Positions 1-38,526 of a DNA stretch of 40,450 nt are shown here, one piece after another. Made by a program: the position numbers and the translations under genes. Source of the stretch: a virus (Duplodnaviria; Heunggongvirae; Uroviricota; Caudoviricetes); IMG/VR virus record IMGVR_UViG_647533158_000004; one strand, written 5' to 3'. Every line of letters begins with the position of its first letter. Position 1 is the stretch's first letter. A model generated the notes under the pieces. That model was not told the DNA's origin and ran no database searches. It was given only the letters and a program-made list of their open reading frames with translations.

Positions 1-1053
1 TCATAAGAATGCTTTAATCAGTTCTTTTGTGCGCGTGGTTCGTTGTGGTAGCTTGGTTGTTGATGATAAACAACTTGTTACATAGGCTGCATAAGGGCCA
101 TCTTCGTCCTGAATTTCATGGGCATCAGCCATCTCTAAGAGAATCGGAATTACACGGGAAGGATTTACATCAAAGTTTGGGTTAGCCGTGAAACCGAGTT
201 CATTTTCAAGTTCATCACTTCCGGGGAAACCAAATTTTAATGCGGTAATAGCACAAAATAATGAGTGAACAACATACGATTTCATCATAAATGAATTACG
301 TAATTCGGAAAAATCTTCCGCCAATAAATTGAAGAAATAATCAATTCTCTCGTTATAGATATTCTCTAAAGGAAAATCATCATCGTATTTTTTATAAATA
401 GCTTCGGTTGCAGGTGCCGACTTTGAACAAAGCCCTCTATCAATGAGTATTGCCATATCTGAGATAAATTCTGCATCACCCATTCTGGCTAATATTTTGG
501 GTGACAATATATTATAAATCTCTAAAAGCTCAGCGTGGGTATCTGCTTTTTCAACGATATACCACTTAAATGCACCTTGAAAAGTAGCATGCCGTTTTTC
601 TGCTGATGTTAGTGGAGATGTATAAGCATTCATTCGTCTAAACATTTCGAGTAATTCAGCCCTGCTTGCTGAATAAACTGTGGATGTTTCAACTTGATAA
701 CTAATAAAACATCTTTTTGCATCATCGGGCAAATCATTAAAATACATGCCAGAATACTTCTTCGATGCCGAAGTAAGTGCAAATTTGTTTTTATAAAAAT
801 CAACGAGAGTTGTTACTCGTTGCTGGCCATCAACAATTTCTTTAATTGGCCTTTCGTTTGTCCTGTCAAATGCTTGATATAAATATATTTTGGGGAAAGG
901 ATAATTTTCTAGAATAGTGTCTATGAAATAACTCTTTGCAAATGGTGGCCATATTCCATTTCCGCGCTGATAATCCTTGTTAATTATTAGTTCTTTTCTC
1001 TCAAGCATTGAAATTAGATCAATTAATGTGATCTGCCCTACATTTGTATTCAT
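1..1053 (-). CDS. DUF262 (ParB/sulfiredoxin-like, DGQQR motif) protein; accessory gene downstream of int, candidate defence gene
   Basis: 350-aa ORF with N-terminal KDYQRG ... IVDGQQRVTTL motif typical of DUF262 as found in GmrSD/SspE-type proteins; no recognisable HNH/DUF1524 C-terminal domain. AGGAG 7 nt upstream of ATG; AT-rich relative to neighbours. Confidence 0.75.
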   Translation of the reverse strand: MNTNVGQITLIDLISMLERKELIINKDYQRGNGIWPPFAKSYFIDTILENYPFPKIYLYQAFDRTNERPIKEIVDGQQRVTTLVDFYKNKFALTSASKKYSGMYFNDLPDDAKRCFISYQVETSTVYSASRAELLEMFRRMNAYTSPLTSAEKRHATFQGAFKWYIVEKADTHAELLEIYNILSPKILARMGDAEFISDMAILIDRGLCSKSAPATEAIYKKYDDDFPLENIYNERIDYFFNLLAEDFSELRNSFMMKSYVVHSLFCAITALKFGFPGSDELENELGFTANPNFDVNPSRVIPILLEMADAHEIQDEDGPYAAYVTSCLSSTTKLPQRTTRTKELIKAFL

Positions 1054-5553: not shown

Positions 5554-6444
5554 ATGGAAGACGCGCTTTACGCTTTTAATTACACACAGAACCGGGACAA
5601 GTTATTTGCTAACTTGATTAGCATCATTGATGGAATCATTGCAGATGGAGTTGTCCGTGAAGAGGAGGTTCTTTACTTAGATACATGGTTACTTGAAGCA
5701 AAGCAGATTATCAATAATGGAGTTATAAAAAGTCTATCTGCTCGGGTGTCGGATATTCTTGCGGATGGAATAATCACATCAGAAGAACGTGATGACCTTA
5801 AAAATAGCCTTCTCCAAATACAGAGGGAAATTCTTGATATCCCTGAAATTGATTTTTACTCCAAGGATGTAGATGTCCATTTACTTAATGGACTATGTAA
5901 AGGATTAATTGCTGATCGGAACTTAACTCAAGAAGAAATAAGATATCTTAATTGGTGGCTTGAGCAAAATGGAGCTTTGAAGAACAACTACCCAGGAAAA
6001 AAACTTTATGCACTTGTAAAGGAAATTCTTAAAGATGGTGTTATTACTGAAGATGAGAGTTTAACTCTACATAAGGCATTAGTAGACTTCACAGGATGTG
6101 ACTTGGAAAGTGGGGTGGTGGATGGTTTGGCGACCAGGCTGCCTATTGATGTAGGGGCTTCGATAGAGTTAGAGGGTAAAACCTATTGTCTTACAGGCAC
6201 TTTTGTTGCAGGAAAGAGAGCCGTAGTTGAAAATTTGATTAAAAATGCTGGTGGGAACATCAGTAGTGGAATTACTCAAAAGTTGGATTTTTTAGTAATT
6301 GGGACGCTTTCCTCCCGTGATTGGAAATTCTCTAGTCACGGAAGGAAGATCGAAAAGGCTATATCTTATAGGGATGATAATGGTGCAAAACTTAAAATTA
6401 TTTCTGAAGAAATGCTTTTCGATGCATTACCAAGTTCGCGATGA
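5554..6444 (+). CDS. Accessory protein with four tandem ADG-motif repeats (TerB-like) and a C-terminal BRCT-like domain
   Basis: AGGAGG then ATG at 5554. Four ~35-aa repeats (IIADGVVREEE / ILADGIITSEE / LIADRNLTQEE / ILKDGVITEDE). C-terminus GKTYCLTGTF ... LDFLVIGT ... KIEKA resembles the BRCT domain of NAD-dependent DNA ligase. AT-rich; convergent with cI and overlaps it by 18 bp. Confidence 0.8.
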   Translation: MEDALYAFNYTQNRDKLFANLISIIDGIIADGVVREEEVLYLDTWLLEAKQIINNGVIKSLSARVSDILADGIITSEERDDLKNSLLQIQREILDIPEIDFYSKDVDVHLLNGLCKGLIADRNLTQEEIRYLNWWLEQNGALKNNYPGKKLYALVKEILKDGVITEDESLTLHKALVDFTGCDLESGVVDGLATRLPIDVGASIELEGKTYCLTGTFVAGKRAVVENLIKNAGGNISSGITQKLDFLVIGTLSSRDWKFSSHGRKIEKAISYRDDNGAKLKIISEEMLFDALPSSR

Positions 6445-7113
6445 CCAGAATACCCTACCTATAACATGAATTCTGGCTCGTCTATCTTCAAAGGTGAGTA
6501 TTTCATCTGGGTACTCATCTTTGTTGAAGCTTCTAAGAATCAAGCCACCGTCAGGTAAGTTGATAAGTATTTTAACCCTTAGCAATACACCATCTCGTAC
6601 GGCATAAAGATCGCCATCACGAATAGGAACGGTTTGAGAAATATCAACGGCAACAAGATCTCCATTATTGAGAACCGGTAATAAACTGTTCCCCCATATT
6701 TGTACGATCTTGGCATTAGATGCACATACGCCAGATTTTCTCAAATCTGCTCTTCTTAACGGAAACCAGTCAATAGCTGATTCAACTATTTCAGCCAGAC
6801 ATCCGTTACCTGCCGATAACTCGACATCTAAAACAGGAATGTTTACGAAAATATCGGGGTCTAATGCGGTGCTTTCTGCTTCTTTTACAACAAGATCAGG
6901 TATGGATGCGTTGTCTTCAATACCAAGTTGTAACCACTTTTGTGATACACCTAAAACTTTTGCAATTTCTTTAATTTTGCGCGGTTGTAGAGTTTCGCCA
7001 TTCTCTATTTTGGCTACAGATTGTTGTGAAAGTCCAATTTTTTCAGCTAGTTGAGCTTGGCTCATGCCAGCTTTCTCTCTACCTATCTTTAATCGTTCTG
7101 CCAGTGTTTTCAC
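6427..7113 (-). CDS. cI: CI-type repressor (XRE HTH plus S24 LexA-like peptidase domain)
   Basis: GTG start with GAGGG RBS; N-terminal HTH (SQAQLAEKIGLSQQSVAKIE) and C-terminal S24 autocleavage domain. Confidence 0.9.
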   Translation of the reverse strand: MKTLAERLKIGREKAGMSQAQLAEKIGLSQQSVAKIENGETLQPRKIKEIAKVLGVSQKWLQLGIEDNASIPDLVVKEAESTALDPDIFVNIPVLDVELSAGNGCLAEIVESAIDWFPLRRADLRKSGVCASNAKIVQIWGNSLLPVLNNGDLVAVDISQTVPIRDGDLYAVRDGVLLRVKILINLPDGGLILRSFNKDEYPDEILTFEDRRARIHVIGRVFWSSRTW

Positions 7114-7138
7114 AACATATCCCTCTCTTTTTTGATGA

Positions 7139-7239
7139 GGTTACAACTTTATGTTTTAGCTTTCCAACACCTAAAAGTTGTGGTGAAAGTTGTTAATGTT
7201 GTATTCTTGCAGCTCGTAACAACTTAACTACCAAAAAAG
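7139..7239. promoter_or_regulatory. Putative OR operators with divergent PRM/PR
   Basis: ACAACTTTATGT (7143-7154), AACACCTAAAAGTTGT (7166-7181) and further AAGTTGT/ACAACTT half-sites between cI and cro. Confidence 0.55.
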
Positions 7240-7248
7240 GAGAAAGCT

Positions 7249-7497
7249 ATGACACCTGAGCAATTAGCCTTATCGGAGGCAATCGCTCTGGCTGGTGGTC
7301 AATCAGAATTGGCTCGGAAGCTCACAGCCAGCAGCGGTCATTTAGTAAAGCAACAACATGTCTGGAACTGGTTGAACAGAGAAAAGCGTCCCCCTGCAAA
7401 GCTCTCGATATTCATTGAAAAGACCACTGGCATATCAAAAGAAAAATTACGTCCAGATATTTTTCAAAAGATTAAAGATTCATCAGATGAAAAGTAA
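7249..7497 (+). CDS. cro: Cro-like repressor (YdaS/DUF1019-type HTH)
   Basis: 82 aa, AAGGAG RBS; HTH similar to Rac YdaS-type Cro proteins; divergent from cI. Confidence 0.85.
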   Translation: MTPEQLALSEAIALAGGQSELARKLTASSGHLVKQQHVWNWLNREKRPPAKLSIFIEKTTGISKEKLRPDIFQKIKDSSDEK

Positions 7498-7519
7498 CCA
7501 CAGTTTTAAGGAGATAGCC

Positions 7520-8077
7520 GTGGGTAAGCATCACTGGAAAATAGAAAAACAGCCTGAGTGGTACGTGAAAGCTGTCAGAAAAACTATCGCGGCGTTGCCG
7601 GGGGGTTACGCTGAAGCCGCTGACTGGCTGGATGTAACAGAGAACGCTTTATTCAACCGCCTTCGTGCAGATGGCGATCAGATTTTCCCGCTGGGATGGG
7701 CAATGGTTTTACAGCGTGCTGGTGGCACTCACTTCATTGCTGATGCTGTGGCGCAGTCTGCAAATGGCGTCTTTGTGTCTCTTCCTGACGTCGAGGATGT
7801 GGACAACGCCGATATTAACCAGCGTCTGCTGGAAGTCATTGAACAGATCGGCAGTTATTCAAAACAGATTCGTTCAGCAATCGAAGACGGCGTAGTGGAA
7901 CCGCATGAGAAGACAGCAATTAACGACGAGCTGTATCTCTCAATTTCGAAGCTGCAGGAGCATGCAGCACTTGTCTACAAAATTTTTTGCATTTCAGAAA
8001 GTAATGACGCCCGCGAGTGTGCAGCTCCGGGCGTCGTGGCGTCGATTGCTTCTGGTTGTGGAGAAACTAACGCATGA
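7520..8077 (+). CDS. CII-position regulatory protein (YdaT/YmfL-like)
   Basis: GTG start at 7520 preceded by AAGGAG; 186 aa; position directly after cro. Confidence 0.65.
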
Positions 8078-8412
8078 ACAGTTTAACAACACACTACCGT
8101 CGCTCGCAACTGATTGCGCTTCCTGTACCGGGTGGAAAAGCGAAGGTGGAATATTGCTATGCAGTGAATGTACCAGGTGACAGGGAAATTGTAACCCACA
8201 GCTTTGCAGAGTGGGCTGTGGGTGATTTCAACCGGCAGAAGGAGACAGTCCTTTGCGACAAGTTAACCGCTGGTTCAAAGATCACTACGGAGTGCTCGTC
8301 AGAGTCATTCGTTGGGAGCCGGAAACACAACGGGTTATCTACCTCCGCGAAGGTTATGAGCATGAATGCTTCAGTCCGCTCGAACAGTTTCGTCGTAAAT
8401 TCAGGGAAATAG
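8074..8412 (+). CDS. Hypothetical protein (YmfM-like)
   Basis: ATGA start/stop overlap with upstream gene suggests coupling; C-terminal half is low complexity and an alternative frame looks more protein-like (see findings). Confidence 0.45.
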
Positions 8413-8421
8413 AGGTCGGTC

Positions 8422-9363
8422 ATGAGCACTAAATTAACCGGCTATGTATGGGATGGTTGCGCTGCATCAGGCATGAAGTTATCCAGCGTGGCAATTATGG
8501 CCCGCCTGGCTGATTTCAGTAATGACGAAGGTGTGTGCTGGCCATCAATTGAAACCATTGCCCGTCAGATTGGCGCGGGGATGAGTACCGTCAGAACGGC
8601 TATCGCACGGCTGGAAGCAGAAGGCTGGTTAACGCGTAAGGCGCGTCGCCAGGGTAACCGCAATGCGTCGAATGTTTATCAGCTTAACGTTGCGAAGCTT
8701 CAGGCAGCGGCATTTTCTCAACTGTCAGATTCTGACCCGTCAAAATCTGACGCATCAAAATCTGACCCGTCAAAATTTGATGCGTCGAAATCTGGCAAAA
8801 AAGCGGGTTTTCACCCGTCAGAATCTGGCGGGGATCCGTCAGTAAAATCAAAACATGATCCGTCAGATAAAAAACCTTCTCGTCCGGACGCTTCGCAACC
8901 GGACACGCAGACGGATGAACAGGATTTTTTAACTCGCCATCCTGATGCGGTTGTATTCAGCCCTAAAAAGCGCCAGTGGGGGACGCAGGATGATTTGACC
9001 TGCGCACAGTGGCTCTGGAAAAAAATCATCGCCCTGTACGAGCATGCCGCCGAATGTGACGGCGAGGTGGTTCGTCCCAAAGAACCGAACTGGACAGCCT
9101 GGGCAAACGAAATTCGCCTGATGTGTGTGCAGGATGGTCGTACTCATAAACAAATCTGCGAGATGTACAGCCGCGTCAGTCGCGATCCGTTCTGGTGCCG
9201 TAACGTGCTCAGCCCGTCGAAGCTGCGGGAAAAATGGGATGAGCTTTCCCTGCGCTTATCGCCGTCCGTCAGCACGTACACCGAAAAACGCGAAGACCCG
9301 TACTTCAAAGCCAGTTACGACAACGTGGACTACAGCCAGATCCCAGCAGGATTCAGGGGGTGA
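8422..9363 (+). CDS. Replication initiation protein (O-like, N-terminal winged HTH)
   Basis: 313 aa; HTH N-terminus, low-complexity linker encoded by tandem DNA repeats, conserved C-terminal domain. Confidence 0.8.
   Translation: MSTKLTGYVWDGCAASGMKLSSVAIMARLADFSNDEGVCWPSIETIARQIGAGMSTVRTAIARLEAEGWLTRKARRQGNRNASNVYQLNVAKLQAAAFSQLSDSDPSKSDASKSDPSKFDASKSGKKAGFHPSESGGDPSVKSKHDPSDKKPSRPDASQPDTQTDEQDFLTRHPDAVVFSPKKRQWGTQDDLTCAQWLWKKIIALYEHAAECDGEVVRPKEPNWTAWANEIRLMCVQDGRTHKQICEMYSRVSRDPFWCRNVLSPSKLREKWDELSLRLSPSVSTYTEKREDPYFKASYDNVDYSQIPAGFRG
8722..8875 (+). repeat. Iteron-like tandem repeats inside the initiator gene (putative origin)
   Basis: About eight degenerate ~15-bp units (CCGTCAAAATCTGAC-like) in tandem, followed by A-rich sequence. 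Confidence 0.55.
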
Positions 9364-9854
9364 TTATGAGTCTTTTGAATGATGTTCAGAAATTCATTGA
9401 AGCCCATCCGGGGTGTACTTCCGGAGACATTGCGGATGCTTTTGCAGGTTACTCACGGCAGCGCGTTCTGCAGTCAGCAAGCAAGTTACGTCAGAGTGGG
9501 CGTGTGGCTCACCGTTGTGAAGGAGATACACGCAGACATTTCCCGCGCCTGACTGAGAGAGCGCAGGAGTCGGAACCACAACCAGTTCGTGAAACCAGAC
9601 CTGTGCGCAATTTCTATGTCGGCACTAACGATCCCCGGGTGATTTTGTGCCTGACCCGCCAGGCGGAAGAACTGGAGTCCAGGGGCTTATACCGTCGTGC
9701 TGCAACGGTGTGGATGGCGGCATTCCGTGAAAGCCACTCCCAGCCAGAACGAAACAATTTTCTGGCGCGTCGTGAGCAGTGTTTACGGAAAAGCAGCAAG
9801 CGCGCTGTATCGGGTGATGAGTGGTATCTGTCAGGGAATTACGTGGGGGCTTAA
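9360..9854 (+). CDS. Hypothetical protein in replication module
   Basis: 164-aa ORF overlapping the stops/starts of both flanking genes; N-terminus looks like a winged helix. Confidence 0.6.
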   Translation: MIMSLLNDVQKFIEAHPGCTSGDIADAFAGYSRQRVLQSASKLRQSGRVAHRCEGDTRRHFPRLTERAQESEPQPVRETRPVRNFYVGTNDPRVILCLTRQAEELESRGLYRRAATVWMAAFRESHSQPERNNFLARREQCLRKSSKRAVSGDEWYLSGNYVGA

Positions 9855-13808: not shown

Positions 13809-13839
13809 ATGATTTTCGCCGAAGATGGCGACATGATTC

Positions 13840-13876
13840 TTGCATTTTTCAAAAAATATGGTTAGGATTATCCTAA
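13840..13876 (+). promoter_or_regulatory. Candidate late promoter PR' with overlapping 15-bp perfect palindrome
   Basis: TTGCAT (13840-13845), 17-bp spacer, TAGGAT; palindrome TTAGGATTATCCTAA at 13862-13876. Confidence 0.35.
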
Positions 13877-13916
13877 CGATGGGCTTTGTGTGTCTACCGT
13901 TGATAATCTTCTTGAA

Positions 13917-13940
13917 CCCGCCATCGAGCGGGTTTTTTTT
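13917..13940 (+). terminator. Rho-independent terminator (tR'-like)
   Basis: CCCGC-CATCGA-GCGGG hairpin followed by eight T. Confidence 0.75.
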
Positions 13941-14011
13941 GTGCTCAAATTTCGAATAATGATTTGGTTATGCTATGTATTTATTTCCTTACTTACTGAG
14001 GGAGTGATGCA

Positions 14012-14191
14012 ATGAGCAATACAAGATGTAGTAATGAAAGTTGCAATAAAGAGTTTATTTATTGGGAGCACAGTGGAGGCTATCCAGGAGGAAAGGATAA
14101 AGAGCCAATTATTTGCCCTTACTGTGGCCACACAAACGGTTATGAAATGACCAGTGGATTGATTTCCAGTAAAAAAATAGAAGAACAGTAG
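14012..14191 (+). CDS. Small zinc-ribbon protein (59 aa) between tR' and lysis genes
   Basis: GAGGGAG RBS; CSNESC ... CPYCGH motifs; below the ORF-track length cutoff. Confidence 0.5.
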   Translation: MSNTRCSNESCNKEFIYWEHSGGYPGGKDKEPIICPYCGHTNGYEMTSGLISSKKIEEQ

Positions 14192-14414
14192 TATTCATAT
14201 CTGTCTAGCCCTGGTATTTGCTGGGGCTTTTTGTTGCCTTCGCCTGATGAATTGACATTGCTTAACCCTCTGTTGTCAGCCATATGCTGGCTTTTTTATT
14301 CAAGGCTTGCGGGGAGCATCAACTCCGTGCTTTGTCGTTAAATTAACCCGTGAGCCTGCATTCTGACATTTAACGTCCCGGCCTTTTGTCGGCGGCGAAA
14401 CATTGGCTATTCAT

Positions 14415-14720: not shown

Positions 14721-15183
14721 TCCTCAGCGTAAAGCTTTCCTCGATATGGTGGCATGGTCAGAAGGAACGGATAACGGGCGACAACCGACACGTAACCACG
14801 GTTATGATGTTATTGTCGGTGGAGAACTCTTCACTGATTACTCCGATCACCCTCGCAAGCTTGTCACGCTAAACCCCAAACTCAAATCAACAGCAGCCGG
14901 ACGTTATCAGCTTCTTTCACGCTGGTGGGATGCTTACCGTAAGCAGCTTGGCCTGAAAGACTTCTCCCCCAAAAGCCAGGACGCAGTGGCATTGCAGCAG
15001 ATTAAAGAACGTGGCGCTTTACCGATGATTGATCGCGGTGATATCCGTCAGGCAATCGACCGTTGCAGCAATATCTGGGCTTCACTGCCGGGGGCTGGTT
15101 ATGGTCAGTTCGAGCATAAGGCTGACAACCTGATTGCAAAATTCAAAGAAGCTGGCGGAATGGTCAGAGAGATTGAGGTATGA
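14707..15183 (+). CDS. R: Endolysin, lambda R family (lytic transglycosylase)
   Basis: Near-identical to lambda R over most of its length (NQRKAFLDM ... [10 protein letters not shown] ... [10 protein letters not shown]). Confidence 0.95.
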
Positions 15184-15617
15184 GCAGAGTAACCGCGATT
15201 ATCTCCGCTCTGGTTATCTGCATCATCGTCTGCCTGTCATGGGCGGTTAATCATTACCGTGATAACGCCATTACCTACAAAGAGCAGCGCGATAAGGCCA
15301 CATCCACAATCGCTGACATGCAGAAGCGTCAACATGATGTAGCAGAACTCGATGCCAGATATACAAAGGAGCTTGCTGATGCTAACGCGACTATCGAAAG
15401 TCTCCGTGATGATGTTTCTGCTGGGCGTAAGCGGCTGCAAGTCGCCGCCACCTGTGCAAAGTCAACGACCGGAGCCAGCAGCATGGGCGATGGAGAAAGC
15501 CCAAGACTTACAGCAGATGCTGAACTCAATTATTACCGCCTCCGAAGTGGAATCGACAAGATAACTGCACAGGTTAATTACCTACAGGAATACATCAGAA
15601 CTCAATGCCTGGATTAA
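15180..15617 (+). CDS. Rz: Spanin inner-membrane subunit Rz
   Basis: N-terminus identical to lambda Rz ([34 protein letters not shown]). Confidence 0.9.
15379..15564 (+). CDS. Rz1: Spanin outer-membrane lipoprotein Rz1, embedded in Rz in the +1 frame
   Basis: AGGAG then ATG at 15379; signal peptide with lipobox LLGVSGC; proline-rich mature part. Confidence 0.8.
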
Positions 15618-16369
15618 CAGGGGCGGATTGAACGATAGCTTTTTTCGAATTGTTATTCCTAGCACATTCTGTTCAATCTGCTGAGATCTACTCTGATGTG
15701 GGAGCACAATGGGTATCGAAATGATTATCTTGCTAGCTGCTGCGTTTAGCACTGCTACCGCTAGGGTATTCGGTCTAGGATATTCATACGGTACTAGCGA
15801 AGTACAAATGAACGCTGATCAGAAGCGTTACGAATAGGAGGACTCAACATCTAGGCTATAGCAGAGCGCTGGATATAAGCAACGAAAGATACCAACAAGG
15901 TATAGCAAACTGTTAATCATATGTCTGATAGTGGCGTTGATCACGAACTGCGCACAAGTAGGACATGCAAGGTTGAGTTAATTGACACAGGGCGGGACCG
16001 GGTGAGACCTATCTGTGCGGCTGTTGATTACTTGGATGAGCTCGATAAGTAGTCAAAGAAAAATATACAGGCATACAGCAAAGTATGGATGGCAGCTGTA
16101 GATAATTGTCTGAAAATATGGTTCTTAGTTAAGTGATAATGAACTTTTAAAAAAGTTAAGCATCCTACATATGTGATGTGGGTGATAGTTGTTTGTTAGC
16201 TGTTGGGACACAACATATAGAAAGTTGAGGAGAATAATGCCTTGTTGTGCAAAAAAAGCTTGATTTGCAAGTGAGAAATATGGCTAATGGAAGAAGAGAT
16301 GTAGTAAGTGGATGTTTTATTTTGTTATTTATAGCTGTAGAATTTACCTAAAATCATAACCGCGGCTGG
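15618..16369. other. AT-rich, CTAG-rich non-coding leader of an accessory island
   Basis: ~750 bp with no ORF of 60 aa or more; at least six CTAG tetramers between 15659 and 15855, unusual for enterobacterial DNA. Confidence 0.5.
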
Positions 16370-16756
16370 ATGATAATGGGTAAGTCAAAGGGCAAAGGTG
16401 GAAAATCAGGTAAAGGGCAACATTCAGTAAGTTTTGCTCAGGCATGGCGAGATGTGATGCTCAAAGCCATGACAACCGGTCAACTAGTGCCTATAACTAT
16501 AAGTATTGTACTGATGATTGCAGCTTGGCGCATGCCATCAGAGGAATTAGGAATACTAGCGCATCGAATTATTGACGGCTTAGCAGATCACTCTCTAATT
16601 GGGTATGGACTTTGTGTCATTGTTATCCTAGCGTGGTCTTGGCATGCAAGTATGATGCGCAGATGTTTTAGCGTGGAAGCTCGTCGTATTGGAGCAGAAA
16701 AAACTCTGCATCAACAGGCGAGAACACAAGTGCCACTGGGATCAAGCGACAATTAA
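16370..16756 (+). CDS. Small membrane protein (128 aa, Lys/Gly-rich N-terminus, two predicted TM helices)
   Basis: MIMGKSKGKGGKSGKG then two hydrophobic segments; AT-rich. Confidence 0.6.
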   Translation: MIMGKSKGKGGKSGKGQHSVSFAQAWRDVMLKAMTTGQLVPITISIVLMIAAWRMPSEELGILAHRIIDGLADHSLIGYGLCVIVILAWSWHASMMRRCFSVEARRIGAEKTLHQQARTQVPLGSSDN

Positions 16757-16772
16757 TCCCTAAGGAGAAACT

Positions 16773-17351
16773 ATGCTGACAGTGCTTTTTTATGTGCTGT
16801 TATGTATGGCAGCAGTGCATTTTATTTACGAAAGGATACTACTTCCATCTGTTCGTTTGCATTACCGCAATAAGCTTTTTGAACTGAGAGATATAGTTAG
16901 AAATCAAATAATTTCGAATAAAAGTAAAGATGATGTACAAGCGGCTGAGCTTGTACATGAGGCCTTAAACAACGCAATCAATCGTTTGCACCTTATGACT
17001 TTGCCCAACAGAGTGAGGGCTCAAAGGCGGCTCAGTGCTAATCCAGAGATACAGGCAAGGATCAAACGTGAGGTTGAACTTTTTCAGAAATGTGATAACG
17101 GGAAGTTAATAGCAACGATACGAGAATCAGCTAAAATCTTGGATAAGGTTTTGCTTTTCAATAGTTTAATGTTGATTATATATTCTCTTCCAATTATGTT
17201 AACAATTTGGTCTGTGGCAAAAGTTCTGCAAACAGCCAACCAATTTTTAGAGTTACTCACTGAAAAACAAAGCCTAGAGCAGGCTGTTTTACTTCTTCCT
17301 GATAGACAGGTTGCAAAGCTTGTTGCAGAAGAAAATTATGCATATGCATGA
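16773..17351 (+). CDS. Membrane protein (192 aa, N- and C-terminal TM helices, charged helical middle)
   Basis: Strong AAGGAG RBS; followed by tandem terminators. Confidence 0.7.
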   Translation: MLTVLFYVLLCMAAVHFIYERILLPSVRLHYRNKLFELRDIVRNQIISNKSKDDVQAAELVHEALNNAINRLHLMTLPNRVRAQRRLSANPEIQARIKREVELFQKCDNGKLIATIRESAKILDKVLLFNSLMLIIYSLPIMLTIWSVAKVLQTANQFLELLTEKQSLEQAVLLLPDRQVAKLVAEENYAYA

Positions 17352-17354
17352 TGT

Positions 17355-17382
17355 AAAAACCGCCTTCGGGCGGTTTTTTATT
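17355..17382. terminator. Bidirectional rho-independent terminator
   Basis: AAAAACCGCC-TTCG-GGCGGTTTTTT. Confidence 0.75.
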
Positions 17383-17432
17383 GCTTGTCCAATGGACGGA
17401 ATCGCCTCTATATTTCCCTTCATGGGATAGAC

Positions 17433-17460
17433 TGAGCCTCGCTGATGCGAGGCTTTTTTA
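17433..17460 (+). terminator. Second rho-independent terminator
   Basis: AGCCTCG-CTGATG-CGAGGCT hairpin followed by TTTTTT. Confidence 0.6.
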
Positions 17461-17490
17461 TGCATTGATAAGCGTAAAGAGAGTCGATTA

Positions 17491-17841
17491 ATGCCACCAC
17501 GAACCCCAAAAGCCTGCCGTGTTCGCGGCTGCCGCCATACCACAACTGACCCGTCAGGCTATTGCGAAAGCCACAAAAGTGAAGGCTGGAAGCAATACAA
17601 GCCGGGCCAGTCCAGACACCAGCGCGGTTATGGTTCGAAATGGGATGTTATCCGTGAACGTGTGCTCAAGCGTGACAAAGGACTGTGTCAGCTATGTCTG
17701 CGTGGTGGTGTGGTACGTGAGGCGAAAACCGTTGACCACATCATCCCTAAAGCGCATGGCGGCACTGATGCCGACAGCAATCTGCAGAGCCTGTGCTGGC
17801 CGTGTCATAAGGCGAAGACGGCCCGTGAACGGTTGAAGTAA
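17491..17841 (+). CDS. HNH endonuclease (terminase-associated)
   Basis: 116 aa; Cys-rich N-terminus and HNH motif (DHIIPKAHGGTD ... NLQSLCWPCH); precedes terminase small subunit as in HK97-like phages. Confidence 0.85.
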   Translation: MPPRTPKACRVRGCRHTTTDPSGYCESHKSEGWKQYKPGQSRHQRGYGSKWDVIRERVLKRDKGLCQLCLRGGVVREAKTVDHIIPKAHGGTDADSNLQSLCWPCHKAKTARERLK

Positions 17842-37692: not shown

Positions 37693-38526
37693 ATGCATGT
37701 TTTTGATAATAATGGAATTGAACTGAAAGCTGAGTGTTCGATAGGTGAAGAGGATGGTGTTTATGGTCTAATCCTTGAGTCGTGGGGGCCGGGTGACAGA
37801 AACAAAGATTACAATATCGCTCTTGATTATATCATTGAACGGTTGGTTGATTCTGGTGTATCCCAAGTCGTAGTATATCTGGCGTCATCATCAGTCAGAA
37901 AACATATGCATTCTTTGGATGAAAGAAAAATCCATCCTGGTGAATATTTTACTTTGATTGGTAATAGCCCCCGCGATATACGCTTGAAGATGTGTGGTTA
38001 TCAGGCTTATTTTAGTCGTACGGGGAGAAAGGAAATTCCTTCCGGCAATAGAACGAAACGAATATTGATAAATGTTCCAGGTATTTATAGTGACAGTTTT
38101 TGGGCGTCTATAATACGTGGAGAACTATCAGAGCTTTCACAGCCTACAGATGATGAATCGCTTCTGAATATGAGGGTTAGTAAATTAATTAAGAAAACGT
38201 TGAGTCAACCCGAGGGCTCTAGGAAACCAGTTGAGGTAGAAAGACTACAAAAAGTTTATGTCCGAGACCCGATGGTAAAAGCTTGGATTTTACAGCAAAG
38301 TAAAGGTATATGTGAAAACTGTGGTAAAAATGCTCCGTTTTATTTAAATGATGGAAACCCATATTTGGAAGTGCATCATGTAATTCCCCTGTCTTCAGGT
38401 GGTGCTGATACAACAGATAACTGTGTTGCCCTTTGTCCGAATTGCCATAGAGAATTGCACTATAGTAAAAATGCAAAAGAACTAATCGAGATGCTTTACG
38501 TTAATATAAACCGATTACAGAAATAA
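37693..38526 (+). CDS. mcrA: HNH-type restriction endonuclease McrA
   Basis: 277 aa; C-terminal HNH motif (CENCG ... HHVIPLSSGG ... CPNCH); length, pin-adjacent position and remembered sequence match e14 McrA. Confidence 0.85.
   Translation: MHVFDNNGIELKAECSIGEEDGVYGLILESWGPGDRNKDYNIALDYIIERLVDSGVSQVVVYLASSSVRKHMHSLDERKIHPGEYFTLIGNSPRDIRLKMCGYQAYFSRTGRKEIPSGNRTKRILINVPGIYSDSFWASIIRGELSELSQPTDDESLLNMRVSKLIKKTLSQPEGSRKPVEVERLQKVYVRDPMVKAWILQQSKGICENCGKNAPFYLNDGNPYLEVHHVIPLSSGGADTTDNCVALCPNCHRELHYSKNAKELIEMLYVNINRLQK

What the first reader, a model, noticed from the sequence alone, without database searches (positions are those of the whole stretch)
15618..17460. CTAG-rich, AT-rich accessory island with two membrane proteins after the lysis cassette
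A 750-bp ORF-free stretch with at least six CTAG tetramers (normally depleted in enterobacteria) leads into two small predicted membrane proteins, followed by two tandem terminators, between Rz/Rz1 and the HNH-terminase block. This is a classic accessory-gene slot (lambda bor/lom-like). The composition indicates foreign origin; the pair may be a superinfection-exclusion or abortive-infection module, and the long leader could hold a regulatory RNA or promoter.
Basis: partly seen in the sequence, partly recalled or inferred. Interest (0 to 1): 0.6.

Follow-up and report, generated by a model that had tools for sequence, protein, structure and literature searches.

The report
TIR-less two-membrane-protein phage-defence moron
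The two small membrane proteins are relatives of two of the three genes of a published anti-phage system (2TM-1TM-TIR of phage P2_AC1), carried here without the TIR gene as a self-contained cassette in a cargo slot of an E. coli prophage, and the "empty leader" in front of them is mostly a dead second copy of lysis genes.

Summary
The interval 15618-17460 is AT-rich and carries 10 of the window's 19 CTAGs. It has no ORF above 43 aa before 16370, then two membrane-protein genes and two intrinsic terminators. It lies between Rz/Rz1 and the HNH-terminase block.

The two genes match, over their full length, the PADLOC models 2TM-TIR and 1TM-TIR. They are 62% and 53% identical to the two membrane components of the P2_AC1 "2TM+1TM+TIR" defence system (Rousset 2022). 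No TIR gene is present in the window.

Comparison shows that the TIR-less pair is the norm. It recurs in lysis-to-HNH slots, in the P2 gpA-to-portal hotspot, in a satellite-like element and in about 80 metagenomic loci. It always has its own terminator and has no recurrent third gene. In AC1 the TIR lies in a 2.8-kb block downstream of that terminator.

About 400 bp of the "leader" is a decayed mEp390-type Rz/Rz1 pair. Only the last roughly 160 bp travel with the cassette, and they hold promoter-like elements. No RNA family or conserved RNA structure was found.

Most likely this is an autonomous, lysogen-expressed membrane module for phage exclusion or abortive infection. That function is inferred, not shown. 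I file it as a new variant of a known kind, of moderate interest.

The parts
15608..15708 (.). Left junction. Homology with sibling E. coli prophages ends at about 15607, just before the Rz stop at 15617. This is followed by about 90 bp of unmatched sequence holding one CTAG.
   Evidence: blastn against L026 and L027; CTAG positions.
15709..15953 (+). Relic i-spanin pseudogene of the mEp390 Rz type. The first 42 codons are intact, followed by a stop, a frameshift and two further in-frame stops.
   Evidence: phrog_1026 Rz-like spanin, E 6e-5. blastn to mEp390, HK639 and SaltyDalty spanin genes at 68-78% identity. tblastn gives 50% and 61% identity in two different frames, combined E 1e-15.
15978..16115 (+). 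Relic o-spanin pseudogene of the mEp390 Rz1 type, interrupted by a stop at 16050-16052.
   Evidence: tblastn at 39% identity, E 3e-9 in the pairwise search; E 6e-5.
16116..16209 (.). AT-rich spacer (GC 0.33) with no homologue found and no CTAG.
16210..16375 (+). Upstream region that travels with the cassette. It is 84% identical in the Klebsiella aerogenes prophage; the P2-like copies match only from 16347. Candidate promoter elements are TTGATT (16260-16265), a 17-nt spacer, then GCTAAT (16283-16288). There is also a family-conserved -10-like TGTAGAAT, with TAGAAT at 16338-16343. A conserved block AAATCATAACCGCGGCTGGATGATAATGGG runs into the start codon.
   Evidence: blastn; upstream alignments A3 and A7. 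The strict promoter scan found nothing significant here, so the promoter is inferred. The 34-aa ORF 16247-16351 is not conserved in K. aerogenes.
16376..16756 (+). '2TM' gene, 126 aa (128 aa if the start is ATG 16370). The protein has a basic N-terminus (+6), hydrophobic segments at about residues 31-49 and 68-86, and a strongly conserved basic C-terminal tail (HA..MRRCFS.EA.RIG.EKT..QQ..T..LG.SD).
   Evidence: PADLOC PDLC02978 '2TM-TIR', E 6e-57, full length. 62% identity to P2_AC1 gp04. phrog_33772. Topology. Alignment A4. PGAP start as. dN/dS 0.085 against K. aerogenes.
16773..17351 (+). '1TM' gene, 192 aa. The protein has an N-terminal TM helix carrying the family motif H16..Y19E..P25S.R28...R32...F36..R39D40..R43. 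This is followed by a basic helical domain (residues 20-124, net +7) and a second hydrophobic segment (about 125-150).
   Evidence: PADLOC PDLC02977 '1TM-TIR', E 7e-79, full length. 53% identity to P2_AC1 gp03. phrog_24550. Alignments A1, A2 and A5. AF2 model with pLDDT 83.6, all-helical. dN/dS 0.080.
17355..17384 (+). Intrinsic terminator 1, which is part of the cassette. Homology with the K. aerogenes and P2-like copies ends at 17379-17384.
   Evidence: -15.6 kcal/mol, z -4.2. Equivalent terminators follow the 1TM stop in K. aerogenes, Cronobacter and P2_AC1.
17434..17461 (+). Intrinsic terminator 2, in lineage-specific sequence between the cassette and the backbone, which resumes at 17490.
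   Evidence: -17.2 kcal/mol, z -4.7.

Best explanation
Shown:
- Window 16210-17384 is a compact mobile cassette. It consists of an upstream region, the 2TM gene, the 1TM gene and an intrinsic terminator.
- The cassette sits as a moron in the Rz-to-HNH cargo slot of an HK97-like E. coli prophage with a P27-type terminase.
- The two proteins are orthologue-level relatives of the two membrane components of the P2_AC1 '2TM+1TM+TIR' anti-phage system.
- The TIR gene is absent here.
- The TIR-less pair is the common, selectively maintained form of the module. Its conserved transcription unit ends before the position where AC1 carries its TIR.
- About 400 bp of the region in front of the cassette is a decayed mEp390-type Rz/Rz1 pair, left behind when the lysis cassette was replaced.

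Inferred:
- The two proteins form an inner-membrane complex. The 2TM protein would be N-in and C-in. The '1TM' protein would have its basic helical domain in the cytoplasm.
- The complex is expressed from the cassette's own promoter in the lysogen and acts on its own against superinfecting phages.
- My preferred mechanism is infection-triggered loss of membrane integrity or potential (abortive infection), with roughly 0.35 absolute probability.
- The main alternative within this explanation is a block of genome entry at the inner membrane (superinfection exclusion), at roughly 0.2.
For: Homology to the validated system:
- Both proteins match the PADLOC models over their full length (E 6e-57 and 7e-79).
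- They are 62% and 53% identical to the AC1 proteins.
- The cloned three-gene AC1 locus protects against lambda, LF82_P8 and P2 (PMC9122126).

Absence of a TIR gene:
- No AC1-type TIR is found anywhere in the window (tblastn best E = 1).
- The pair lacks a TIR in K. aerogenes prophages in the same lysis-to-HNH slot.
- It also lacks a TIR in Xenorhabdus and Chania phage contexts.
- The same holds in about 11 P2-like prophage loci, where the pair lies between gpA/DinI and the portal gene.
- It holds too in an Avibacterium satellite-like element and in a metagenomic phage carrying a reverse-transcriptase gene.

Breadth of the family:
- A profile search finds 973 clusters at 50% identity with E <= 1e-3.
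- In 80 distinct metagenomic or viral loci, the 2TM partner lies directly upstream in 69.
- A TIR-TM homologue appears in only one of these loci, which is AC1-like.
- The 96 nearest neighbours share no recurrent Pfam family.

Selection and gene organisation:
- dN/dS is about 0.08 for both genes between the two TIR-less copies from E. coli and K. aerogenes.
- An intrinsic terminator follows the 1TM stop in all copies examined, including AC1, where it lies between 1TM and TIR.
- In AC1 the TIR and gp01 genes lie in a 2.8-kb block that is absent from TIR-less siblings, whose flanks are contiguous.
- A TIR-TM homologue stands alone in mEp390.
- A DefenseFinder survey reports that the complete three-gene system was not detected in its set of bacterial genomes (bioRxiv 10.1101/2024.10.26.620412).

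Location:
- The sites are known cargo or defence sites, namely the P2 hotspot of Rousset 2022 and the slot that holds iss/bor in sibling prophages.
- About 10% of nearest neighbours hit defence models such as AriA, NsnB, HEC and mREase_IV.
Against: - Anti-phage activity has been shown only for the three-gene AC1 clone. No single-gene deletions are reported in the text or supplements that I could read. The pair alone may therefore be inactive, and the AC1 phenotype might come from the TIR gene alone.
- The -35 element is degenerate in this copy, and the strict promoter scan found no significant site in the leader. Expression in the lysogen is therefore unproven.
- Many distant family members lie next to housekeeping genes.
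- The defence enrichment among neighbours is modest and has no control.
- A TIR protein supplied in trans elsewhere in the host genome cannot be excluded.
Confidence: 0.6

Rival explanations
1. The pair is an orphaned effector module. The two membrane proteins are TIR-activated effectors, as Rousset et al. speculated for AC1. Without the TIR gene they are inert here, or they depend on a TIR or other signal-producing enzyme encoded elsewhere in the host.
For: The only functional test used all three genes, and the authors proposed that the TIR makes a messenger that activates the TM proteins (PMC9122126). TM effectors driven by nucleotide signals are common in CBASS, Pycsar and Thoeris (established knowledge). 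PADLOC groups the three models under one system.
Against: - The TIR-less state is the rule across about 95 loci and many lineages.
- Both genes are under strong purifying selection between TIR-less copies (dN/dS about 0.08).
- The cassette's terminator separates it from the TIR in AC1, where TIR and gp01 form a separate 2.8-kb insertion.
- A TIR-TM homologue exists alone in mEp390.
- No recognisable nucleotide-binding domain is found in either protein.
Confidence: 0.15
2. The pair is a membrane toxin/antitoxin-like or otherwise selfish stabilisation module, or a membrane-homeostasis pair, whose primary role is not phage defence. Its presence in phage cargo slots would reflect hitch-hiking.
For: - The two small genes are tightly coupled and often overlap by 4 bp.
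- The module is very widely scattered, including beside housekeeping genes, transposases and recombinases.
- No conserved partner exists.
- Only a minority of neighbours look defence-related.
Against: In enterobacterial phages the pair sits specifically in slots known for defence or host-benefit cargo (PMC9122126). The only experimental datum for the family is an anti-phage phenotype. Toxin-antitoxin behaviour and abortive infection are not mutually exclusive.
Confidence: 0.15
3. The pair is a lysis accessory. The two membrane proteins would modulate holin timing or spanin function, since they follow the lysis cassette.
For: The pair lies immediately downstream of Rz/Rz1 here and in K. aerogenes, and close to the lysis genes in a Chania phage. 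Both proteins are small and membrane-embedded.
Against: - Neither protein matches any holin, antiholin or spanin family.
- In P2-like phages the pair is in the gpA-to-portal hotspot, far from the lysis genes.
- It also occurs in a satellite-like element and in chromosomal contexts.
- Sibling prophages with the same lysis genes lack it.
- It carries its own terminator and has a foreign composition.
Confidence: 0.07

Closest known systems
2TM+1TM+TIR system of Escherichia phage P2_AC1 (Rousset et al. 2022; DefenseFinder Rst_2TM_1TM_TIR; PADLOC models 2TM-TIR, 1TM-TIR and TIR-TM)
   Same: Both membrane proteins are full-length homologues (62% and 53% identity). The gene order, orientation and short intergenic gap are the same. 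The -10-like element and 5' block are conserved, and an intrinsic terminator follows the 1TM stop. Both are carried as prophage cargo.
   Different: There is no TIR gene and no AC1 gp01. The host phage type and insertion site differ (lambdoid Rz-to-HNH slot rather than the P2 gpA-to-portal hotspot). Activity of the pair alone is untested.
TIR-less 2TM-1TM pairs in Klebsiella aerogenes HK97-like prophages (loci L017-L019) and in P2-like prophages of Cronobacter, E. coli, Serratia and others
   Same: The two-gene cassette and terminator are the same. The K. aerogenes copy is 84% identical in DNA over 16210-17384 and sits in the same lysis-to-HNH slot.
   Different: These copies are unannotated hypothetical proteins with no experimental data. 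The P2-like copies share DNA homology only from 16347, so their upstream regions differ.
Lambda bor / E. coli iss and other morons of lambdoid late operons
   Same: The slot is the same: sibling prophages carry iss between Rz and HNH. The architecture is moron-like, with foreign composition and its own terminator.
   Different: There is no sequence or family relationship. Bor/Iss is an outer-membrane lipoprotein for serum resistance, encoded on the opposite strand.
Prophage membrane exclusion or abortive-infection pairs such as lambda RexAB, and TM effectors of CBASS, Pycsar and Thoeris (functional analogy from general knowledge, not tested here)
   Same: These are small inner-membrane proteins encoded by prophages or defence loci that protect the lysogen or population from other phages.
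   Different: No detectable homology was found in Pfam, PADLOC, NCBIfam or by fold search. There is no adjacent sensor or signal-synthase gene.
mEp390 / HK639-type Rz and Rz1 spanins
   Same: Window 15709-16115 is homologous to both genes, in the same order and spacing.
   Different: Here both genes are broken by a frameshift and stops. The working spanins of this prophage are the unrelated lambda-type Rz/Rz1 at 15180-15617.

Membership tests
2TM-1TM-TIR defence system (Rousset 2022 / PADLOC / DefenseFinder) | A homologue of the 2TM component is present. | tested here: met
   PDLC02978, E 6e-57, model positions 2-124 of 124. 62% identity to AC1 gp04.
2TM-1TM-TIR defence system (Rousset 2022 / PADLOC / DefenseFinder) | A homologue of the 1TM component lies immediately downstream on the same strand. 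| tested here: met
   PDLC02977, E 7e-79, model positions 1-185 of 186. 53% identity to AC1 gp03. The gap between the two genes is 16 bp.
2TM-1TM-TIR defence system (Rousset 2022 / PADLOC / DefenseFinder) | A TIR-domain component (PADLOC TIR-TM, Pfam TIR_2) lies adjacent to the pair. | tested here: not met
   After the 1TM gene come two terminators and then the HNH gene. tblastn with the AC1 TIR against the whole window gives a best E of 1. As a positive control, the AC1 TIR hits PDLC03016 at E 3e-118 and TIR_2 at E 7.5e-10.
2TM-1TM-TIR defence system (Rousset 2022 / PADLOC / DefenseFinder) | Protects cells against phage infection. | not testable with these tools
   Only the three-gene AC1 clone has been tested (PMC9122126).
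Moron (autonomous cargo unit in a phage late operon) | Lies between genes that are neighbours, or hold other cargo, in related phages. | tested here: met
   Backbone homology ends at 15607 and resumes at 17490. Siblings carry iss or other genes in the slot.
Moron (autonomous cargo unit in a phage late operon) | Nucleotide composition differs from that of the backbone. | tested here: met
   GC is 0.41 against about 0.50. CTAG observed/expected is 1.54 against 0.06.
Moron (autonomous cargo unit in a phage late operon) | Has its own terminator. | tested here: met
   The terminator at 17355-17384 is conserved with the cassette in other hosts.
Moron (autonomous cargo unit in a phage late operon) | Has its own promoter that is active in the lysogen. 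| tested here: inconclusive
   A -10-like TGTAGAAT is conserved, and other copies have TTGACT at -35. In this copy the -35 is degenerate, and the strict scan found no site above chance. No expression data are available.
Holin / antiholin / spanin lysis proteins | Family-level homology, or constant linkage to lysis cassettes. | tested here: not met
   Neither ORF hits a holin or spanin family in Pfam or PHROGs. The pair occurs far from the lysis genes in P2-like phages.
Nucleotide-signalling defence (Thoeris / CBASS / Pycsar type) with TM effectors | A signal-producing enzyme is encoded next to the effector, and the effector has a recognisable ligand-binding domain. | tested here: not met
   No such gene is found in the window's island or among 96 nearest neighbours, apart from the single AC1-like locus. 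Neither protein has a domain hit.
Rz/Rz1 two-component spanin (for 15709-16115) | Homology to an i-spanin and an o-spanin, in order. | tested here: met
Rz/Rz1 two-component spanin (for 15709-16115) | Intact reading frames. | tested here: not met
   There is a stop after codon 42, a frameshift, two more stops in Rz, and one stop in Rz1. Both are pseudogenes.
Known RNA families / structured leader | A match above the Rfam gathering score, or a conserved covarying structure. | tested here: not met
   Only sub-threshold hits driven by the terminators were found. RNAalifold gives a consensus energy of -0.19 kcal/mol.

The most novel reading that the evidence does not exclude
The 2TM-1TM pair is an autonomous, widespread two-gene membrane defence system, with about 1,000 clusters at 50% identity in phages, satellites and chromosomes. 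The published '2TM-1TM-TIR' system would then be a chance juxtaposition, in a single phage, of this pair with an independent stand-alone TIR defence gene of the kind that mEp390 carries alone. Current defence finders, which I recall (not verified here) expect all three genes, would then miss essentially every natural instance.
Probability: 0.4. Interest if true: 0.6.

Novelty: new variant of a known kind. Interest (0 to 1): 0.45.

Why it matters
If the pair works alone, a catalogued defence system has been defined around an accessory gene. Its real core would then be a very compact module of about 320 aa in total, with no recognisable domains. That module is common in prophage cargo slots and in environmental bacteria, and present tools do not annotate it.

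The finding yields a directly testable dissection: the pair against the TIR in AC1, and this E. coli cassette on its own. It also adds a new class of small membrane proteins to phage exclusion and abortive-infection biology.

The relic spanin pair is a clean fossil of lysis-cassette replacement in lambdoid phages. It explains why an apparently empty 'leader' exists.

Tried and rejected
- Megablast of the island against 50,697 phage records found nothing. Only six E. coli chromosomes carry it, at 99.7% identity or more.
- Pfam, NCBIfam and PDB sequence searches gave no family for either protein.
- The AF2 model of the 2TM protein was too poor to use (pLDDT 60).
- The afdb50 fold library was unavailable.
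- The Rfam scan returned only sub-threshold, terminator-driven matches.
- No conserved RNA structure was found in the 5' region.
- The small ORFs in the leader were rejected as genes. ORF 15709-15837 is the N-terminal stump of the dead i-spanin. ORF 15921-16052 spans the tail of the dead i-spanin and the start of the dead o-spanin. ORF 16247-16351 is not conserved in K. aerogenes.
- The strict sigma-70 scan found no more promoter-like sites in the scanned region than shuffled sequence gives, and none in the leader.
- I looked for a degraded TIR gene on either side of the pair and anywhere in the window; none was found.
- I looked for a substitute third gene. The Avibacterium 306-aa neighbour is unrelated to the AC1 TIR or gp01, and no recurrent neighbour family exists.
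- The genome-contig scan returned only one locus.
- Cluster look-ups gave no organism names for distant members.
Full report
**1. The observation**

- CTAG occurs 19 times in the 40,450-bp window. Ten of these lie in 15618-17460 and six in 15618-16369.
- CTAG observed/expected is 1.54 in the island and 0.06 in the remaining 38.6 kb. Fisher P is 2e-9.
- Against the island's own composition, 10 observed versus 6.5 expected is unremarkable (P = 0.12). The island simply lacks the strong CTAG avoidance of its backbone. That fits recent foreign origin.
- GC is 0.41, falling to 0.33 at 16050-16349, against about 0.5-0.58 in the flanks.
- No ORF above 43 aa lies between the Rz stop (15617) and 16370.
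- Two ORFs follow, at 16370/16376-16756 and 16773-17351. Each has two hydrophobic segments.
- Two strong intrinsic terminators follow, at 17355-17378 and 17434-17455.
- The flanks are holin, a GH24 endolysin and Rz/Rz1 on the left. On the right are HNH, a P27-family small terminase and the large terminase.

**2. What the two genes are**

- Pfam and NCBIfam give nothing for either protein.
- PADLOC matches both over their full length. The 126/128-aa protein hits '2TM-TIR' (PDLC02978, E 6e-57). The 192-aa protein hits '1TM-TIR' (PDLC02977, E 7e-79).
- PHROGs places both in families of unknown function.
- The only phage record with a relative is Escherichia phage P2_AC1. There, gp04 (2TM), gp03 (1TM) and gp02 (TIR) lie in that order on one strand. 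The window's proteins are 62% and 53% identical to gp04 and gp03.
- Rousset et al. [quoted passage not shown]
- The authors speculated that the TIR makes a messenger that activates the membrane proteins.
- I found no single-gene dissection in the text or the supplements.

**3. The TIR gene is missing, and that is the normal state**

No TIR is present in the window:
- The AC1 TIR (PADLOC TIR-TM E 3e-118; Pfam TIR_2) has no homologue anywhere in the window. The tblastn best E is 1.

The enterobacterial relatives of the pair also lack it:
- Klebsiella aerogenes HK97-like prophages carry the pair between the lysis genes and HNH-terminase, exactly as in the window, with no TIR.
- A Xenorhabdus locus has the pair upstream of HNH-terminase.
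- A Chania phage has it upstream of a methylase and the lysis genes.
- About eleven P2-like prophage loci (Cronobacter, E. coli and others) have it between gpA/DinI and the portal gene, with nothing after the 1TM gene.
- Only AC1 and near-identical contigs carry the TIR.

The family is much larger than the enterobacterial set:
- A profile of the 1TM family finds 973 clusters at 50% identity (E <= 1e-3), all about 175-190 aa long.
- Distant members still hit both PADLOC models and keep the roughly 125-aa partner directly upstream. This holds in an Avibacterium satellite-like element, in a metagenomic phage carrying a reverse-transcriptase gene, and in a chromosomal context beside a transposase.
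- Among 80 distinct viral or metagenomic loci, the partner is adjacent in 69, often with a 4-bp overlap. Most exceptions lie at contig ends.
- A TIR-TM homologue occurs in just one of these loci, which is AC1-like.
- The 96 nearest neighbours share no recurrent Pfam family. The maximum is 3 of 96, for IS1 transposase.
- One survey preprint states that the complete Rst_2TM_1TM_TIR system was not detected in its bacterial genome set.

**4. The cassette and its limits**

- DNA homology with the K. aerogenes copy covers 16210-17384 at 84% identity. Homology with the P2-like copies covers 16347-17382.
- The conserved unit is therefore the 5' block, the 2TM gene, the 1TM gene and terminator 1.
- Every copy examined has an intrinsic terminator right after the 1TM stop. 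This includes AC1, where the terminator (-17.8 kcal/mol) lies between the 1TM and TIR genes.
- In the AC1-like locus L014, the TIR and gp01 genes lie in a 2.8-kb block (about 5587-8442). TIR-less siblings lack this block, and their flanks are contiguous.
- A TIR-TM homologue stands alone between Q and holin in mEp390.
- Both membrane genes are under strong purifying selection between the TIR-less E. coli and K. aerogenes copies. dN/dS is 0.085 and 0.080, with dS of 0.7-1.0.
- Together these results make loss of function after TIR loss unlikely. They suggest that the TIR is an add-on or an independent neighbour.

**5. The 'leader'**

- Backbone homology with sibling E. coli prophages ends at 15607 and resumes at 17490. 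Those siblings carry other cargo there, including iss, the bor homologue.
- Positions 15709-15953 and 15978-16115 are homologous to the separate Rz and Rz1 genes of mEp390, HK639 and SaltyDalty.
- The Rz copy has a stop after codon 42, a frameshift and two more stops. The Rz1 copy has one stop.
- This is a dead second spanin pair. It was probably left behind when a lambda-type S-R-Rz/Rz1 cassette replaced an mEp390-type lysis cassette upstream of it (inference).
- mEp390 itself carries cargo (a glycosyltransferase) between its spanins and HNH.
- Five of the six 'leader' CTAGs lie in this relic.
- Positions 16116-16209 are an unmatched AT-rich spacer.
- Positions 16210-16375 travel with the cassette. 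Alignment of upstream regions shows a conserved -10-like TGTAGAAT / TGTACTAT. Many copies have TTGACT at a distance of 17-18 nt, but that element is degenerate in the window. A conserved block AAATCATAACCGCGGCTGG runs into the start codon.
- The likely start codon is ATG 16376, the start annotated in the RefSeq record.
- Rfam gives only sub-threshold hits caused by the terminators.
- RNAalifold finds no conserved structure.
- The 34-aa ORF 16247-16351 is not conserved.

**6. The proteins**

- The 2TM protein has a Lys/Gly-rich basic N-terminus (+6) and an acidic loop between its two hydrophobic segments. It also has a highly conserved basic C-terminal helix. By the positive-inside rule, both ends are probably cytoplasmic (inference).
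- The '1TM' protein has an N-terminal TM helix that ends in the family's most conserved motif (H16, Y19, P25, R28, R32, F36, R39, D40, R43).
- It continues with a basic helical region (residues 20-124, net +7) and a second long hydrophobic segment with conserved N130 and P140.
- The AF2 model is all-helical (pLDDT 83.6).
- No specific fold relative exists.
- The conserved residues cluster at the cytoplasmic face of the membrane. This hints at a specific interaction between the two proteins or with a cytoplasmic cue, rather than a simple pore (inference).

**7. Interpretation**

Identity and architecture are well supported. This is a TIR-less copy of the two-gene membrane core of the AC1 system, carried as a moron in a known cargo slot.

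Function is inferred from three lines:
- homology to a validated defence locus;
- location in defence or cargo hotspots;
- a modest defence signal among neighbours (about 10% hit PADLOC models, no control).

I commit to an autonomous module for phage exclusion or abortive infection that acts at the inner membrane. Overall confidence is about 0.6. Within that, infection-triggered membrane failure is the preferred mechanism, at about 0.35. A block of DNA entry is the alternative, at about 0.2.

The rivals are:
- an effector pair that needs a TIR in trans or is inert (0.15);
- a toxin-antitoxin-like or other non-defence membrane module (0.15);
- a lysis accessory (0.07).

**8. Novelty and score**

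The family is known, through PADLOC and DefenseFinder models and one validated locus. The window adds a new member in a new phage type and slot.

What is new is the variant and what it implies. The TIR-less pair is the dominant, conserved and separately terminated form. The named three-gene system is essentially confined to AC1. This is a testable correction to how the system is defined, not a new kind of biology.

Interest is 0.45. Classification: new variant of a known kind.

**Caveats**

- Neighbour analysis used naive ORF calling on short metagenomic contigs.
- TIR detection relied on tblastn with two queries, plus Pfam and PADLOC on nearest neighbours only.
- Partners acting in trans cannot be seen with these methods.
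- No expression or phenotype data exist for the pair alone.

Noticed in passing
window 13809-14402: A second AT-rich gap (GC about 0.37-0.38) lies between the Q antiterminator and the holin gene. It holds a 59-aa CxxC...CxxC zinc-ribbon ORF (14012-14191), with only weak zinc-ribbon family hits. In mEp390 the equivalent Q-to-holin gap holds a stand-alone TIR gene, so this may be another cargo slot.
   Followed up: partly
L003 (mEp390, NC_019721) 142-960, minus strand (gp47): A TIR-domain protein homologous to the AC1 TIR (PADLOC TIR-TM E 2e-57; 37-41% identity) is encoded alone, without any 2TM or 1TM gene. This suggests that this TIR family can act independently.
   Followed up: partly
L014 5587-8442 (AC1-like IMG/VR contig); L002 3798-6416: In AC1 the TIR gene and an unannotated 305-aa gene (gp01) form a 2.8-kb block that is absent from TIR-less P2-like siblings. 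gp01 has no Pfam or PADLOC hit and was not part of the cloned system. It could be the real partner of the TIR.
   Followed up: partly
L001 (E. coli FHI_NMBU_10, NZ_CP046539) 7874-9485: In this otherwise identical prophage, the HNH endonuclease gene after the island is split by an IS3 insertion. The gene is intact in the window (17491-17841).
   Followed up: no
L028/L029 (Avibacterium gallinarum) 5602-7650: An element that looks like a capsid-forming phage satellite (capsid, protease, portal, HNH, small terminase, AlpA, primase, integrase) carries the 2TM-1TM pair. The pair is followed by an unknown 306-333-aa gene that is unrelated to the AC1 TIR or gp01.
   Followed up: partly
window 38272-38490: There is a weak second HNH-like match (27% identity to the C-terminal half of the 17491-17841 HNH protein) near the right end of the window.
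   Followed up: no
L010 2969-4088; L011 3130-4262: The P2-like hotspots that hold the pair also hold other small cargo genes upstream. These include a WapI-like immunity-family protein and a DUF3850/ASCH protein. They may be further defence or counter-defence genes.
   Followed up: no
L090 417-1208: In one metagenomic locus a single ORF hits both the 2TM and 1TM HMMs. This is either a natural fusion of the two proteins or an artefact of ORF calling. A real fusion would support physical interaction between the pair.
   Followed up: no
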